From contig OX597818.1 in assembly GCA_951406725.2 (NCBI GenBank), positions 95,170,001 to 95,234,000 on the forward strand: 64,000 bases of DNA. The letters are read 5' to 3'. This DNA comes from Octopus vulgaris. Lineage: Eukaryota. Below, in pieces: positions 3,451 to 53,645 of this stretch (positions are counted from its first letter, which is position 1; each line of letters opens with the position of its first letter). The notes beneath the pieces were generated by a model. That model searched no databases. It had not been told where the DNA came from and saw only the letters and a list, made by a program, of their open reading frames with translations. The position numbers and the translations under genes are program-made.

Positions 3451-5045
3451 AGCTTCTTGAAACTACAAAACAATTATAACCTTCATGCCCATTATAAATG
3501 AATAACCACCAAATAAGAACACAAATTTGTTGAAATGGAGTTGCAGTCGATTCGACCTGCAGTAGACCTACTCAGATTGGTTGATGTTCATCCTAAACAT
3601 TTGCAGGAAAACATAAACAGAAAGAGATCAAGGTATCTACATCGAATGATTACAAAATCGTAAATTCTACTTAAGGTACCAAAGAACCAAGTCGGAATTT
3701 AAACTGGGCAGCGTGCTAGGGCTACCGCACAATTTATTTTATGGGCTATGTTTAGACTAGAAACTACAATGCAGAGGGACAGAAGTATGTAGTTTGTATG
3801 TATTGTCAGACAATTTGGTGATCAATCGTTCCTACAATTTACCAGTAGACTGTAACACAGTACAGGTTTCGTAGACCCTGATAATTTAGTTTATGCGTAC
3901 AAGGGACATAACTCTTGTATACCAAAGTTATAACTGTTTTATCAACTAAACACGCTTCTTCCCTGTCACTATCACTACCTCGTATCTCTTAATGAGAGTC
4001 CAATTATAAAGAGCTAGAAATGTCAAGAGGCATCTGAAATCACCCTGTAAACTCGACATTTGTAACAAAGATATCCACGAATGACGTAATCAATTATTCA
4101 ACACACGACTTTAGAACTGTATTCTCTCACACACATACACACGCTCACCATATGGGCGGCAGGATTAGCATACAGATTGTTTACCTGGGTTATTTGCAGC
4201 AGATTTTACTGTGTCACAAGAATTCTGACTTCTGCTTCTCTCTTTTCTCATGTTCTGCTTACATAATACCGACGTACATTCTGTTCAAGTGGAACATTTA
4301 CAGCATCAGTCTTTGTAAAGCTAGGATTGTCTGTATAAAATATGGGCACTGCCCAGCTTCCCAATAAATTTATTAATATTTATTTAAATACACACATCCT
4401 GCAATTATGTGTCCTCTAAACAAAAGATTATAATAAAGAAATTAGCATGAAGATGTGTCAGTGATGCTACTGTTACTGATGATGATGACGACAACGACGA
4501 TGTTGGAAATGATGATGGGTACGGTGATGGTGAATATAATGATGTCACTAACTAGTTGAACTATAGCATAACAAGCCAATGAGAAAGCCTCCATGGGGTC
4601 ATTTGTCTCACAAGAAATAGTAGCCAAATCTCTCTCAAACCACTGCCAACCTTTTTGTTTTCTCTTGAATGGAAAGGAGACACTGGCTTATGTAGGGCTT
4701 AAACACACTGTCTAAAAACAGAAAGCATAGAAGAGAAATGACAGCATGGTCACAGTTGTAATGCCTTTAGTTGTTTGATTTGGGTTTGCTCGTTCAGAGC
4801 TGACCTGGAGCTAAGCAATAACATATGCTAGGAAGGTCAAACTTTTAGTACCAGTTACATGATTTTCTCATCCACTGGGGTGATGATGATAGTGAGGGAG
4901 AAGATCCTGATCTCACACTATGCTTTTACCATGTTGTTTAGCAAAAGGTTAGAACTATTAACAGAGGTTGTTCCAACCACAGCCATCCTGTAGACTTCTT
5001 TTCTCACTGACACAGAATATATAAGATGACATTATTATTCAACAT

Positions 5046-12000: not shown

Positions 12001-12284
12001 CTTGTGTTACCACTGTTTTCACTAGTCTTAATATTTTTGCTTATTCATCTGACCCCCCTATATTATTGTATCTACCATAACTACATAAATATATACACGC
12101 ATACTATATGAACACATTTGTCCGCACAAACGGACATACATACATTCTCACGCACATATACATAGAATCTTTGTTGGAGAAATTCTTATGCTCTGTGACT
12201 TTTTCATTGATGAAAACCTGTTTAAAACAATGCTTTTGTTGACTTCGCGATAGAAATCCACGTTTTGTTAATTTTGTCTTGGCA

Positions 12285-13856
12285 ATGAACATGAGAAGGT
12301 TACCTCCAAGCTGGTTTACTCAACTTGGTAGCAGAGTTTCGGACAGAAAATTACGCCCAGTATTTTGTTTGCGACATGGTTTCAATCCCTGTAACTGCCG
12401 TCACACTACTAGTTACTCGAAACTCTATCAAAGTAATAGGTATCAAAAGAGATTTATCCATCACACATCAAGGCCTGTATTTAGTGGCCCCGATAGTGTA
12501 GAGAATCCTCGTCTCGCTCCCTTGCAAGTTACTTCTATACTTCGTGTCAACGAACTCAGTGTCGATGTAAATGAGGGAGCGGTGAAGTATTTCGAATCCA
12601 ACCAACTCCAGTCCAACAATCCTATTGAAGATCGACGAGGAAATGCCAAGTTTATCGGCAGCCCTAAATTTTTGTTCGGTGTTTTCGATGGACATGCAGG
12701 CTGTGCTTGTGCACAAGCTATAAGTGAAAGGCTCTATTATTATATCGCTTTGATGATTTCACCCCCACATTTGATAGAAAAAATTGTCCATATACTGAAG
12801 GATCGCGGGCTCGATATCCATTCAACTGGGATTTTAAACTGGTATCGAGGCCCACACGACTATGTGAACAAAGAACTTTCTCCAATGTATAGTAAAAGCT
12901 TGGTTAAACTGGCAAATGAGATATTAGCGCTGTATATTGAGGAAGAATCCACGATTGATGATCATTTATTGAGTGCATTTTGTCGACTGGATCAGGATAT
13001 TGTACAAGAAGCACTACCGAATTATTCCAAAAATGTGAGTAACTTCGAAGCCATGCAGATAGCTTTTTCTGGTTCCTGTGCTTGCGTTGCTATGGTGGAC
13101 GGTACAAACTTGTATGTTGCTAACACTGGTGATTGCAAAGCTGTTTTAGGGGTCAATGTTGGAGATGACCAGTGGGAAGCCAAAGAACTGTCCCATGACC
13201 ACAACGCTGACAATGTCCAAGAATGTAGAAGACTAGTGAATTCTCATCCGAACGAAGGAACTCATTTGATAAGAAACGGTCGCTTACTGGGCGACTTAGC
13301 CCCCTTAAGAGCCTTTGGAGATGTACGTTATAAATGGCCGGCCAGAGAACTGAAACATGTAGTCAAAACAATGGCTTATTCTACCCCATACGGAAACAAT
13401 TTAATTCCTGCCCACTATCACACACCACCTTATCTGACAGCCGAGCCTGAAGTGATCAGTCGACGCCTCACTCCAAAGGATAAATTTCTGGTGCTGGCAA
13501 CAGATGGACTGTGGGAGATGGTCACTCCTGAGAAAGTTGTAAAAATCATAGCCGGCCACATGGAAGGGAAACAAGTCCATGTTAACTTCAGATTACCTTA
13601 CAGCGAAATCACTTTATCGAATATTAATCAAATCTTGCTGAAGAGAAAAACTAGCCTGGCCAATAAAGCTGAGGATTCTAACGCCGCTACTCACCTAATC
13701 CGTAATGCTCTCGGACCGGAGCATGGTCGTGTGTCTGCTATGTTGACCCTACCAATTCATATATCACGTCTATACAGGGATGATATTACAGTTACTGTTA
13801 TATATTTCGATACAGACTATATACGTGACCATTTTCATCAGACATCGGCAGAATGA
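12285..13856 (+). CDS. PDP1: Pyruvate dehydrogenase [acetyl-transferring]-phosphatase, mitochondrial (PP2C/PPM family), single-exon CDS
   Basis: 523-aa ORF from ATG 12285; Arg-rich, acid-poor N-terminal targeting peptide; SNNPIEDR, FGVFDGHAG, LYVANTGDCKAVLG, LRAFGD, PPYLTAEPEV, DKFLVLATDGLWE, NAATHLIRNALG, RDDITVTVIYF. Confidence 0.95.
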   Translation: MNMRRLPPSWFTQLGSRVSDRKLRPVFCLRHGFNPCNCRHTTSYSKLYQSNRYQKRFIHHTSRPVFSGPDSVENPRLAPLQVTSILRVNELSVDVNEGAVKYFESNQLQSNNPIEDRRGNAKFIGSPKFLFGVFDGHAGCACAQAISERLYYYIALMISPPHLIEKIVHILKDRGLDIHSTGILNWYRGPHDYVNKELSPMYSKSLVKLANEILALYIEEESTIDDHLLSAFCRLDQDIVQEALPNYSKNVSNFEAMQIAFSGSCACVAMVDGTNLYVANTGDCKAVLGVNVGDDQWEAKELSHDHNADNVQECRRLVNSHPNEGTHLIRNGRLLGDLAPLRAFGDVRYKWPARELKHVVKTMAYSTPYGNNLIPAHYHTPPYLTAEPEVISRRLTPKDKFLVLATDGLWEMVTPEKVVKIIAGHMEGKQVHVNFRLPYSEITLSNINQILLKRKTSLANKAEDSNAATHLIRNALGPEHGRVSAMLTLPIHISRLYRDDITVTVIYFDTDYIRDHFHQTSAE

Positions 13857-19855: not shown

Positions 19856-19955
19856 ATTTAGAGTTTAATGCTTCTCAAACTAACATATAGCAGCCTCAAA
19901 ATGTAAAATGTTTTTGCTACTTTTCCTCATTTTCATTAATAAGATGACAAAATTT

Positions 19956-20193
19956 CAGCATGGAAGGTGTTTATAAGCCATTTAAGAAACACACAAAATC
20001 CGTTAGGTTTACTTCAACATTTAAATTTAATTTGTCAAAATATTTTCGCCGCTTTGAGACCGTGACCTGTTCACTGATAAAATTCCGTGCAGCATCTCTT
20101 AAATGGCTTATAAACACCTTCCACGCTGCAATTGTTTTTGTTCCAGCACACGATCTCAGATCAGGTCACTTGCTATGCAAGTACATTTCCATA
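19956..20193 (-). mobile_element. Penelope-like solo pseudo-LTR with short inverted segment
   Basis: 12-bp direct repeat ATGACAAAATTT on both sides; 31-bp IR at 19956-19986 / 20098-20128; internal hammerhead motif. Confidence 0.7.
20031..20081 (-). ncRNA. Minimal hammerhead ribozyme motif, G3:C8 variant
   Basis: TTTATCA-GTGAACA-g-GTCAC ggtctcaaa GCGGC-GAAA-ATAT-T-T-TGACAAA; palindromic stem III AATATT. Confidence 0.6.
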
Positions 20194-21150
20194 ATGACAA
20201 AATTTGTTTTGCAAGTATGTAATTCTTTTTTTTAACCACAGTGTTTAACAAAATTTAAAAAGTCAGAAACCATCTTAATTTTATTAAATAATTGCCCTCT
20301 TTTTCAGTTTTCATAGCTGTACCACTTATGAGAAACACTGGTTTTGCCCCAGATTAAGCAGATCTCTGGGATCAAAAGTTCAAGCTTTGATTATTCCATT
20401 TGTCCCCATCTGCCTCTTCTGTTTATTTCTTTTAGGCAGGCATAGCTGGTTTGTTAAGAAGCTCACTTTACAACCATGTGACTTACTATACATATTCTGT
20501 ATAGTACTTTGGCTGTTTCCTAATACAGCCCCACACCAACCAATGCCTTGCGAGTGAATTTGGTAAGTGGAACCTGTTGTGTGTGTGTGTGCTTCCACAA
20601 CCACACTACTTAATCAGTGTTGGTTTGTTTACATCCCTGCAGCTTAGGAGCTTAGCAAAAGAAACCAGTAGCATAAGTACCAGACTTCAATAAATAAGTA
20701 CTGGAGTCAACCAGTTTGACTAAAACTCCCTCATGGCAATACCCACTCCAGCATGGCCACAATCCAATGATTGAAACTAGTAAAAAATAAAAGATAGTGT
20801 ATTCTGGACTACATTATCAAATGTGTCCGCTGCATTTATTTGGGTGGTAGTGTGTGATATAAAGGAGTTTTAGCTTCTGTTTCTAGCAAGTTGATTGACC
20901 TTGTTAAGACACCTCTACTTGTAAAAAGAAAAGTAGAGTTGTTGGATATAGTTGTTGTTGTAGCCAGCTCTGCTTAAACAATCCTGTAACCCAGCAGAGA
21001 ATAATGAAGTAACGGGTTGAAGTCCATGGGTCATGTACCTTTTGCTGTGTTTGTTGGAATCATTGTATTGTACTACTCAATGTCTTGTAATGTTTAGTTC
21101 AGTGTTTCCTCTATGGGATGAAAGCTGTGGTGATTGAAAAGAAGGTGAAC

Positions 21151-31493: not shown

Positions 31494-31747
31494 GTCTGGG
31501 GAGATTCATTCTCTTTTAGTGCCTTATAATTTAACACACTCACCCGCAAAGTTTCCATTCATTTACTTATTTATTTTTCTAAAATTGTCGTTGCGTCGTG
31601 TAACCTATTCAATAGTTGTTGACAACTATTGAAAAGGTTGCAAGATGCAACGAAAATTTTGGAAAAATAAATAAGTAAATGAATGGAAATTTTACGGGTG
31701 AGTTTATTAAATTATAAGGCACCAAAAGCGAATGACTCTCCCCAGAC
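31494..31747. mobile_element. Palindromic Penelope-like pseudo-LTR with head-to-head hammerheads (U3:A8)
   Basis: ~125-bp arms centred at 31620/31621; + arm CTA-TTGAAAA-g-GTTGCA aga TGCAAC-GAAA-AT-T-T-TGG. Confidence 0.7.
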
Positions 31748-47630: not shown

Positions 47631-48703
47631 GTCCTCTTCCCATATTTTCCTTGGTACATACAGTCTGTCTGTGTCACTTTTTGGGTGGAGTATCCCATAT
47701 CTAGATATCAACTTCCTTGCCTTTCTGTCTAAGATGTTTAGGTAATCTACTGTCTATGCGATTACCCCTACTCCAAATCTAAGGAGTGAAACCACCCAGG
47801 TGTTGATAGCTTCAATCTTATTCCATTCATTTAATTTTGACTTAGGGATCAGTCTCAGTCTGTGCAAGAACTTCACCTTAAATTTTTCTGTCATTTCTTT
47901 CTCCATCAATTTATCCATTTCCAAAATCCCCAAGTACTTATAACCCATCTCTTTTATCTGCTTCATAACCTCCCCCGATGGTGTCGTCAGCCCGTCCATA
48001 CATTTGATTTTGCCTCTCTTCAAGACTAACACATCACACTTTCTCAGTCCGAACTCCATTCTGATATCAGCACTGAAAGTATACACCGTATCAACGAGGG
48101 AACTGACTTGGACTTCATCTTTATCATAAAGTTTGAGGTCATCCATGAATAACAAATGGTTGATTTTTTCTTTACAGCTTTTGAATACATACTCAGTTTT
48201 TGCTTTTCTCAGAATCAGTGTTAGTGGTATCAAACACAGTACAAAGATCAGTGGGGACAGGCAATCTCCTTGGAAGATGCCCCTCCTAAGTTCTACTGTC
48301 CCTAAACTTCTTCCATATGCTGTGAGGTCCGTCCTCCAATTCACCATGCTTTTCCCAAGCAATCGCTCAACATTCGATGCAATACCAAATAGGTTCATGC
48401 ATTCCATAATCCAAGAATGTGGGATCATATCATACGCTTTACGATAGTCGATCCATGACATGGCTAAGTTACTTTTCCTCCGCTTGCAGTTTTGTCTATC
48501 AGGAGTTGATCCTTGGTACCTCTGCACTTACACTTGCAACCCTTCTGCTCATGTGGCAGGACTCCCAATTTTTTTTCCAGATGTTCATATACTGATTCTG
48601 TGAGTATTCCAGTTAATAATTTCCACATAAGTGGCAGACAGGATATTGGCTTGTAATTGTCTACCGTATTGCTTTTTTCAATGTTTTTCAAGCACAGCAC
48701 TGC
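47631..48703 (-). mobile_element. Dong/R4-clade LINE reverse transcriptase fragment
   Basis: [44 protein letters not shown]; frameshifted. Confidence 0.95.
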
Positions 48704-49010: not shown

Positions 49011-49396
49011 TTCTTCTTATTATTATTATTACATAGTAGTACAGTTCACTGAACTGTATTAGCAGACCTGTTCACTTAACTGCAAGTATGTATCACTATA
49101 CAGTATCGTTCACTACAATGTGTCCACAGCCAAGATACCTAACTGTTAACAGTTCAGTCAATTTAACTGTTAGTAGATATTACTAAATGGTATAATTCAC
49201 TGTACTGTGTCCATAATCAAGCAAACTGTTACCAGCCAAGTTCACCTTGTAAGCAGGTACCACTGTATGATGTAGTTCCCTGTACAGTGTTCATAGCAGA
49301 GATATCTAACAGTCTGCAGCCTGGTTTACTTAGTTATAAGTAGCTACCAAAGTGTAGCTAGTCCACAAGCACAAACTAAAGGTAGGCTTTCTAGAC

Positions 49397-51945: not shown

Positions 51946-53192
51946 ATATACATATATCCCTTTTGTCAGTCATTAGGCTGTGGCCATGTTGGGGTACTGC
52001 CTTGAAGAATTTCAGTCAAACGAATCGACCCCAGTACTTTTTCTTTTAAAGCCTGTTACCTATTCTTTCAATTTCTTTTGCCAAACTGCTAAGTTACAGG
52101 GACGTAAACACACCAACACCAGCTGTCAACAAACTCAAACACACACACATATACATATACACACATATAATACATATATACACACATATATGGAGAGAGA
52201 GAATGTGTGTGTAGGATAGAGAGAGAGGGGGAGAGAGAGGAGGTTGAATATGATGTGATGACAGTTATTGAGGTAACACCGTTTGTTTGTTGTTAAGGAC
52301 AATTGACATGTAAGCTAAGCAGACGTCTCTTACAAAAAAAATACACCAACAAAACACCGCTGACGGTCTGGACGATTGAATCGCTGACTGGAACCACGCC
52401 CAAGTACCTATTTCGTGCACAAAGTAAGTACTTTATACCTGTAACAATGCCGTGACCAGCCGCTCTAAAAAAAAAAGATTAATATTTATAACTTTTCACG
52501 TTGTTTGTTGAAGACGGAGCCAGCCACATCTGGTATCTGAAATAACTTACTCTGATTTTGGTGTATATACATGTGTGTGCGTGTATACTGTCAAAATATC
52601 GTCTTTTTTATGTCTGTATGTAACATATTTCTTTTGTCTCTCACTCAAGATATACACAAACTGTGTGTGTGTGTGTGTATGTTATTTATTTATTTTTTTT
52701 TTCACTTGTTTTACGTTGAACTAGGGCACAGCCTTCATAGGGTCTATCATATCGATCTCAGTATTAATTTCAGGCGGGTACTTATTTGATTGATCTTCTC
52801 ATGGCAGAACCGCTAAGTCACGGATTATAAAATAACATAACGTAAACAACACCAGATTTTTTAGACCAGTGTAAGCATAAAGGTACGTGCACATGCAGTA
52901 TATACACATACGTTTATATATACATGCATATACATATGCCTATATATATATATATACATGCATACATACATACACACATATATTTATAAACTGTTAAAAA
53001 GTATGACTATCTCCTCACGTTCACCAATGGCACATACTTTACGTGCTGTGATATTTATATATAACCACCACTTCTTGTTTATGTTCATCACTATCTCCCT
53101 GTGTGCATTTTACTCCTTTATAAATACTATCCAGCTTTTAGTAAGTGTATACTTGTCTGGGTATACGTCTGTCGACACACATACACAAAACG

Positions 53193-53240
<48 letters not shown>

Positions 53241-53484
53241 ATACACATACATACATGTGTACGAATATTGAGCCTAATTCCTATAGTAACCTGTCGCGCA
53301 TCCAATTCATCAATAAGTGTCTGTATGTAGATATGCCCCACCCCTCTCATATATATATATGTATGAATGTATGTATATTCTTTTACGTGTTTCTGTCATT
53401 TGACTTTGGTGATGCTGGAGCACCTATATATATATATGTGAGGGTGTGTATAGATAGAGAGATAAACATACATACATATACATG

Positions 53485-53521
<37 letters not shown>

Positions 53522-53645
53522 GTGTATGTTTGTCTTTATGGCAAGCGAGTGCTATTAAAAACAAGTTTGACATTAAACTGAAGATTTTTCCATTTTTTTT
53601 TTTTTTTTGTAGAGTGCGTATTTATCATGCTTTCAGAATAAAAAT

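What the first reader, a model, noticed from the sequence alone, without database searches (positions are those of the whole stretch)
19944..20205. G3:C8 core-swapped hammerhead in a 238-bp element with a 12-bp TSD
The minus-strand core GUGAACA differs from CUGANGA at exactly positions 3 and 8, a compensatory swap known from mutagenesis to retain activity and uncommon in natural HHRs. Stem I (7 bp, one mismatch), stem II, GAAA and palindromic stem III are in register. The element has clean ends (ATGACAAAATTT duplicated) and a 31-bp inverted segment enclosing the ribozyme, so it is a discrete mobile ribozyme cassette.
Basis: partly seen in the sequence, partly recalled or inferred. Interest (0 to 1): 0.75.

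Follow-up and report, generated by a model that had tools for sequence, protein, structure and literature searches.

The report
Swapped-core hammerhead in Penelope retroelement fragment
This 238-base insert is a truncated, partly inverted scrap of a very common Penelope-type jumping gene whose hammerhead RNA motif has its key internal base pair flipped (G-C instead of C-G), while sister families in the same genome use C-G or U-A, which likely means the catalytic shape is kept by selection, although cutting is untested and this copy is probably worn out.

Summary
In detail: minus-strand type I minimal hammerhead (20081-20031) with G3 (20074) and C8 (20069), 12-bp TSD, inverted segment. G3:C8 is the family norm (7,553 exact 18-mer hits), and the predicted stems are the family majority. 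The interpretation needs correcting: this is not a self-contained ribozyme cassette but the pLTR/ORF-start of an autonomous RT + GIY-YIG Penelope-like element (L203, L248), inserted as a sense arm plus an inverted arm that stop at two fixed sites about 60 nt apart, the known PLE 'tail'. Sister PLE families carry C3:G8 or U3:A8 with covarying stem II, good natural support for the 3:8 pair. Against a need for cleavage: an unpaired G3·G8 sub-lineage also spread, at most 3 of 120 arms start at the cleavage site, and this copy has mismatches in both stems. I found natural G3:C8 in no paper searched (Lünse 2017 not readable). This scan has noted the same swap in this genome before (e.g. e1-8670522, e1-8663303). 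New variant of a known kind; interest 0.42.

The parts
19944..19955 (.). Target-site duplication, left copy (12 bp)
19956..20097 (-). Arm A: sense copy of the PLE pLTR end and ORF start, from the AG|ATGC point to fixed 3' end A (about codon 8-11 of the ORF)
   Evidence: blastn to parent L203, positions 4720-4864, 86%
20031..20081 (-). Minimal type I hammerhead motif (7-bp stem I, extra nt 9.1, 5-bp stem II, palindromic stem III, U17); one mismatch in each of stems I and II in this copy
20069..20074 (-). Swapped tertiary pair: G3 (20074) and C8 (20069)
   Evidence: family counts
20097..20193 (+). Arm B: inverted, shorter 5'-truncated copy running to fixed 3' end B
   Evidence: blastn to L203 positions 4828-4926, 91%
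20103..20193 (+). First ~30 codons of the PLE ORF (MAYKHLPRC...)
   Evidence: translation; continues into the RT-EN frame in L203
20134..20193 (+). 'Tail': ~60 nt between ends A and B, present on one arm only
19956..19987 (+). Left arm of the internal inverted repeat (partner about 20097-20128), the overlap of arms A and B
20194..20205 (.). Target-site duplication, right copy (12 bp)

Best explanation
The insert is a short, 5'-truncated and partly inverted copy of the pLTR/ORF-start of a Penelope-like retrotransposon whose minimal hammerhead carries a family-wide G3:C8 pair; it was likely made by the element's own RT/GIY-YIG protein, and the swapped core is predicted to keep weak, dimer- or protein-assisted self-cleavage that the insertion step likely does not need. 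Shown: the parent element, the ORF, two fixed 3' ends, the TSD, the three 3:8 states in sister families. Inferred: the endonuclease nicks AT-rich DNA on both strands about 12 bp apart; one nick primes reverse transcription at site B and the other at site A of uncleaved RNA (or one cDNA folds back and is resolved at A); the two cDNAs join at a short microhomology, which gives sense arm + inverted arm + one tail + TSD. Inferred: selection on master elements keeps 3:8 paired because cleavage or folding matters at another step, such as processing tandem read-through RNA. This copy itself is probably inactive.
For: Parent: L203 has an inverted truncated copy, a pLTR with the G3:C8 motif, an ORF starting MAYKHL and running into RT (YVDD), a Cys-rich linker and GIY-YIG, then a second G3:C8 motif 4.26 kb downstream. 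L248 has a 1,025-aa open frame with GIY-YIG above the Pfam cut-off (25.4 vs 22.6 bits) followed by the G3:C8 motif. Young copies are 96-99% alike. Ends: of 75 position-ordered loci on C1, 45 have two arms, 40 of them A+B, 1 A+A, 1 B+B, 3 other; six loci are one duplicated insertion, leaving 35 A+B of 40. This matches the one-sided PLE tail and inverted 5'-truncated copy (PMC8557442) and two adjacent RT start sites inside the ORF (PMC11167929). Covariation: sister PLEs (55% identity over 815 aa) carry C3:G8 or U3:A8; of the first 100 of 8,757 non-G3 motifs, 52 are C:G, 39 U:A, 2 U·G and 7 unpaired (my tally); stem II covaries and 3:8 pairs in 10 of 10 hand-picked rows. C3G/G8C rescues activity in the lab (PMC9901934; PMC8495972; PMC11167929, in a PLE hammerhead). 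In the family, common polymorphisms fall in loop II, outside the stems, or keep a G·U pair.
Against: No cleavage data. An unpaired G3·G8 state occurs about 300 times (9 of 30 sampled hits were not of this family) and includes a sub-lineage sharing a loop marker with separate insertion sites. An internally deleted subfamily has a broken core (L210-L215). 44 of the 52 C3:G8 motifs have C instead of the conserved A9, including the family with intact 1,312-aa frames, so core constraint is loose. Only 1 of 120 arms starts exactly at the cleavage site, and stem I microhomology explains it; two more are ambiguous. Only three families, so two independent 3:8 changes; the shuffle control ignores relatedness. 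Co-folding two monomers did not give the hammerhead dimer as the best structure. Rescue by the double swap is only partial in the papers read.
Confidence: 0.72

Rival explanations
1. Vestigial or structural motif: the hammerhead fold in these PLEs no longer cleaves at a useful rate; the 3:8 complementarity is a relic, or serves folding or protein binding near the RT start sites.
For: The G3·G8 sub-lineage and the core-deleted subfamily still spread; C9 in an active sister family; no copies from cleaved RNA; hammerhead mutants do not affect insertion in vitro and no RNA ends at the cleavage site in the anole PLE (PMC11167929).
Against: Two family-level double changes, both ending in a Watson-Crick pair, with U4 G5 A6 and GAAA unchanged; paired G3:C8 outnumbers the unpaired S:S states 7,553 to 300 and is the state of the youngest copies.
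Confidence: 0.2
2. A self-contained non-autonomous ribozyme element (retrozyme- or SINE-like) that is copied as a fixed 238-bp unit.
For: Short copies far outnumber ORF-bearing ones (contig depth about 10^6 over the unit against about 10^2 past end B in one run; a rough measure); many start at the same 5' point (40 of 120 arms at positions 15-24), which fits a short dedicated template RNA; another scan note reports a tandem array of the unit (e1-8672697, unchecked).
Against: Arm lengths and junctions vary between copies; the inverted structure is not a shared unit; the sequence is colinear with the pLTR/ORF start of full elements; only one hammerhead per copy here.
Confidence: 0.07
3. Chance resemblance to a hammerhead, or a MITE-like DNA element with terminal inverted repeats.
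For: No Rfam hit; this copy does not fold into the motif; there is an inverted repeat and a TSD.
Against: Rfam also misses the canonical-core sister; the same position upstream of the ORF start holds a hammerhead in three families with covarying stems; the inverted repeat is internal and variable.
Confidence: 0.01

Closest known systems
Minimal type I hammerheads in pLTRs of metazoan Penelope-like elements (Cervera and de la Peña 2014, PMC4209133; read parts 1-2 of 4, no supplements)
   Same: Type I order, extra nucleotide between 9 and 10.1, G10.1-C11.1, palindromic 15.2-16.2, location in the pLTR, mostly single truncated copies, some in opposite-strand pairs; a natural 3:8 covariation (U3-A8, about 1,300 hits in Schistosoma).
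   Different: Here the pair is G3:C8, which the parts read do not report; C:G, U:A and G:C coexist in sister families of one genome.
Anolis Poseidon PLE (Frangieh et al. 2024, PMC11167929; read parts 1-2 of 4)
   Same: Hammerhead at the pLTR/ORF junction, two RT start sites just inside the ORF that define the tail, AT-rich targets, uncleaved RNA as template; engineered C3G/G8C partly rescues cleavage.
   Different: There the ORF starts at stem II, here about 55 nt after the cleavage site; tail about 60 nt rather than 30-40; the swap is natural; two-armed insertions use one site per arm, whereas in vitro the start site did not differ between strands.
Neptune/Nematis clades of EN+ PLEs (as defined in Craig et al. 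2021, PMC8557442; passages and introduction read)
   Same: C-terminal GIY-YIG with two Cys between GIY and YIG, extra Cys-rich linker between RT and EN, (TA)n target bias, partial tandems with an inverted 5'-truncated copy.
   Different: Clade not fixed: no reference Neptune or Nematis proteins were available to build a tree.
Non-LTR retrozymes (bioRxiv 10.64898/2026.07.22.740005, part 1 of 5 read)
   Same: Non-coding pLTR-derived unit with a type I hammerhead.
   Different: Defined there as tandem units each with a hammerhead; this locus is a single inverted insertion with one motif.
Natural hammerhead core variants (Perreault et al. 2011, PMC3088659, section 8 read; figure not seen)
   Same: Compensatory change at 3:8 in nature.
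   Different: The text reports U3-A8 only.

Membership tests
Hammerhead ribozyme, minimal type I | Three-way junction with stems I and II | tested here: met
   Family majority and young copies pair 7 + 5 bp; covariation in stem II and inner stem I across families. This copy has two mismatches.
Hammerhead ribozyme, minimal type I | Literal core consensus CUGANGA | tested here: not met
   GUGAACA; departs at 3 and 8 only.
Hammerhead ribozyme, minimal type I | Watson-Crick pair between 3 and 8; U4 G5 A6, A9, G12 A13 A14, A15.1-U16.1 kept | tested here: met
Hammerhead ribozyme, minimal type I | NUH cleavage triplet | tested here: met
   UUU (U17 at 20038); NUH rule from PMC8495972. That UUU is a slow triplet is recalled, not checked.
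Hammerhead ribozyme, minimal type I | Palindromic stem III that allows a dimer | tested here: inconclusive
   AAUAUU is palindromic, but co-folding did not give the hammerhead dimer.
Hammerhead ribozyme, minimal type I | Site-specific self-cleavage | not testable with these tools
   Only contigs were available; genomic 5' ends show no peak at the site.
Rfam hammerhead models | Score at the gathering threshold | tested here: not met
   No hit in the window, and none on the motif at E<=10 in L013, L033 or the canonical-core L061, so the test is uninformative.
EN+ Penelope-like element | Single ORF with RT and C-terminal GIY-YIG (CCHH type) | tested here: met
   Parent L203/L248: YVDD motif read directly, GIY-YIG 25.4 bits above cut-off. 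RVT_1 did not match L248 itself; homologue P0023 matched weakly (E 0.001, below cut-off).
EN+ Penelope-like element | pLTR / partial tandem with inverted 5'-truncated copy | tested here: met
   L203; 45 of 75 loci are two-armed.
EN+ Penelope-like element | [quoted passage not shown] | tested here: met
   Two fixed ends about 60 nt apart, A+B in 40 of 45 two-armed loci.
EN+ Penelope-like element | Variable TSD, AT/(TA)n target bias | tested here: met
   28 of 75 loci with a duplication of 8 nt or more that is not pure (TA)n, against 4.2 in shuffled pairs (five are one duplicated insertion, several are nearly (TA)n); 18 more lie in (TA)n.
EN+ Penelope-like element | Retained intron in the pLTR | tested here: inconclusive
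   Branch-point and 3' splice-site-like sequence just before the motif and one GT candidate about 720 nt upstream; no spliced junction in DNA (0 hits).
Neptune or Nematis clade | Extra Zn-finger-like linker between RT and EN | tested here: met
   C-x3-C-x2-C-x7-C just before the GIY strand.
Neptune or Nematis clade | Phylogenetic placement with reference elements | not tested
   No named reference proteins in hand.
Non-LTR retrozyme | Tandem units, each with a hammerhead | tested here: not met
   Single motif in an inverted two-arm insertion.

The most novel reading that the evidence does not exclude
A PLE radiation in one animal genome has tried three Watson-Crick states of the catalytic 3:8 pair (C:G, U:A, G:C), so G3:C8 is an active natural hammerhead class with over 7,000 copies that CUGANGA-based searches miss, and PLE hammerheads are selected for catalysis at a step other than insertion. 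The strict one-A-one-B ends record a two-subunit RT/EN complex that primes each nicked DNA strand at a different RNA site.
Probability: 0.35. Interest if true: 0.65.

Novelty: new variant of a known kind. Interest (0 to 1): 0.42.

Why it matters
The function of PLE hammerheads is an open question (weak in vitro, dispensable for insertion in PMC11167929). A natural series of sister elements with C:G, U:A, G:C and unpaired G·G at the one tertiary pair that defines the active fold gives a ready test of whether catalysis is selected. It also shows that searches fixed on CUGANGA undercount hammerheads by thousands per genome. The element type and its layout are ordinary, and this copy is a worn fragment.

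Tried and rejected
Rfam: no hit; uninformative, because the canonical-core sister is missed too. Folding of the window copy: no signal. RNA: no RNA holder listed on record; contigs of four guessed-RNA runs cover the unit with no variant of 10% or more listed at G3 or C8, but contigs show neither ends nor strand nor transcription, so this is no evidence on expression or cleavage. Spliced-junction pattern: 0 hits; splicing neither shown nor excluded. Start-at-cleavage-site test: negative. PDB sequence search and Pfam RT match of the parent ORF: none. A DNA tree of 160 short units was mostly unresolved and its core labels were mis-indexed; I used marker counts and a protein FastTree instead; IQ-TREE timed out. 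The idea that the TSD is element-derived because it contains TGACAAA: other copies have unrelated TSDs, so probably coincidence. The idea that G3·G8 is the ancestral intermediate: it shares a loop marker with G3:C8 copies inside one sub-lineage, so it is more likely derived, but the node support is low (0.77). The window hit at 49075 is a chance 11-mer. Protein atlas gave no answer. Lünse et al. 2017 (about the short-stem-III PLE hammerheads) was not held, and neither was a recalled paper on 3:8 exchanges.

Full report
Observation. On the minus strand G3 is at 20074, C8 at 20069, G12 at 20047 and U17 at 20038. This copy has an A·C mismatch in stem I and another in stem II. Its hammerhead fold scores +5.2 kcal/mol, against -7.9 for young copies, whose minimum-energy structure holds stems I and II. 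Rfam finds nothing, but it also misses a canonical-core sister motif.

Family. The window lies in a 2.8-Gb animal genome (G000:C5). Exact pattern counts: G3:C8 7,553, C3:G8 in the same flanks 308, all S:S states 8,161, hence 300 unpaired. To avoid choosing on the core, I took the first 100 of 11,669 hits of a downstream 20-mer, which gave 75 loci: G at 3 in 69 of 72 arms, C at 8 in 71 of 78, and GUGAACA in 59 of 72. DNA contigs of four other coded organisms hold the family; loose-end consensus reads show the same core in three and a C-to-T at 8 in the fourth at 0.73 agreement, and 81 variant rows were not displayed.

Parent element. Following the sequence upstream of uninverted copies led through a microsatellite-rich 3' UTR to a GIY-YIG frame and an RT. 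L203 shows the classical layout: inverted truncated copy, pLTR with the G3:C8 motif, an ORF starting MAYKHL about 55 nt after the cleavage site, RT, Cys-rich linker, GIY-YIG, UTR, and a second G3:C8 motif 4.26 kb on. L248 has a 1,025-aa open frame with GIY-YIG above the Pfam cut-off. Young copies are 96-99% identical. The window insert maps to L203 4720-4864 (minus arm) and 4828-4926 (plus arm), so it is the hammerhead plus the first codons of the ORF, and its inverted repeat is the overlap of the two arms.

Insertion anatomy. Arms end at two fixed points about 60 nt apart (A and B). Of 45 two-armed loci, 40 are A+B, 1 A+A, 1 B+B and 3 have one end elsewhere; single arms end at B in 19 and at A in 11. 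Six loci are copies of one insertion inside a larger repeat, leaving 35 A+B among 37 classifiable independent loci (about 5e-9 if ends were independent at 50:50; my hand calculation). A second, partly overlapping sample gave 13 of 13. Craig et al. describe an inverted 5'-truncated copy and a tail at one end only (PMC8557442); Frangieh et al. tie the tail to two RT start sites and AT-rich cleavage (PMC11167929). I infer priming at a different site on each nicked strand, or fold-back of one cDNA; the data do not separate these. TSDs of 8 nt or more that are not pure (TA)n occur in 28 of 75 loci against 4.2 in shuffled pairs, with the caveats given in the membership test.

Is the swap compensatory? 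A protein search with the ORF start found sister families. Their hammerheads, at the same place before the ORF, have C3:G8 with stem II GTCAC/GTGAC, or U3:A8 with GTTGC/GCAAC. The C3:G8 family L249 is 55% identical to L248 over 815 aa. On a 40-row RT-EN FastTree the G3 family is one clade (support 1.000), apart from the C3:G8 and U3:A8 groups (midpoint root). Of the first 100 of 8,757 non-G3 motifs, 52 are C:G, 39 U:A, 2 U·G and 7 unpaired (my tally). In a hand-picked 10-row alignment, 3:8 pairs in all rows in three pair types, and stem II is 98% paired with double changes (the control ignores relatedness, and there are only three families). Lab rescue by C3G/G8C is reported in PMC9901934, PMC8495972 and, for a PLE hammerhead, PMC11167929.

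Evidence that cleavage is dispensable. G3·G8 occurs 311 times as a 16-mer (9 of 30 sampled were not of this family). A loop marker is shared by 16 of 31 G·G rows and 13 of 118 G:C rows (rows not all independent). Among long C16 copies with that marker, 7 are G:C and 7 are G·G, with no shared downstream flanks. So an unpaired lineage inserted repeatedly and is more likely derived than ancestral. L210-L215 have an altered or deleted core. 44 of the 52 C3:G8 motifs carry C9 instead of A9. Of 120 arms, 40 start at positions 15-24 (around AG|ATGC), 23 at 36-37 (partly alignment trimming at a polymorphic site), and 1 exactly at the cleavage site, where stem I microhomology accounts for it; two more are ambiguous. 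Templates were therefore mostly uncleaved, as in the anole element.

Literature and novelty. Natural U3-A8 is published (PMC3088659 section 8; PMC4209133). Searches found G3-C8 only as an engineered variant (PMC3884650; the papers above). Lünse et al. 2017 was not held, and I read no supplements or figures, where a natural G3:C8 could be listed. The scan's own notes report this swap in the same genome and in protist and phage DNA; these are unchecked AI notes, seen after my reading was formed, and I do not count them as support.

Verdict. A real, family-wide G3:C8 hammerhead variant inside an ordinary truncated Penelope-like insertion. New variant of a known kind. Interest 0.42.

Noticed in passing
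window 31622-31666 (+): A copy of the sister U3:A8 hammerhead family (stem II GTTGC/GCAAC) lies in the same window.
   Followed up: partly
L249:2137 and 6725; one search list: The sister family with many near-identical copies and intact ~1,312-aa frames has C instead of the conserved A9 (44 of 52 C3:G8 motifs); its ORF has a long Asn-rich insertion.
   Followed up: partly
L203:4700-4723 and most short copies: 5' ends of short copies cluster at an AG|ATGC point preceded by branch-point and polypyrimidine-like sequence; no spliced junction found in DNA. Unexplained: transcript start, splice intermediate or RT stop.
   Followed up: partly
G000:C16, L106-L135: Long, UTR- and ORF-bearing older copies are concentrated on contig C16 (most of the 40 best hits), including the G3·G8 sub-lineage.
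   Followed up: partly
L210, L212-L215: Subfamily with an altered or deleted core; in L214 and L215 (printed) an internal deletion fuses the ORF start to a downstream part of the ORF; several near-identical copies.
   Followed up: partly
L298, L302, L341, L342, L346, L347 (C1): One A+B insertion carried inside a larger dispersed repeat (94-99% alike over ~1 kb).
   Followed up: partly
window 19944-19955: The TSD contains TGACAAA, identical to the 3' arm of stem I; other copies have unrelated TSDs, so probably coincidence.
   Followed up: yes
G000:C1:2348329-2348357: A motif with A3 and C8 and a different stem II loop; perhaps another family or a mutant.
   Followed up: no
window 12243-13856 (+), 47754-48527 (-), 52865-53581 (+): Long stop-to-stop frames (537, 257, 238 aa) elsewhere in the window, not examined.
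   Followed up: no
L136 minus strand 5791-4694: A different PLE (366-aa RT thumb plus GIY-YIG frame) nested between arms of a G3·G8 copy.
   Followed up: no
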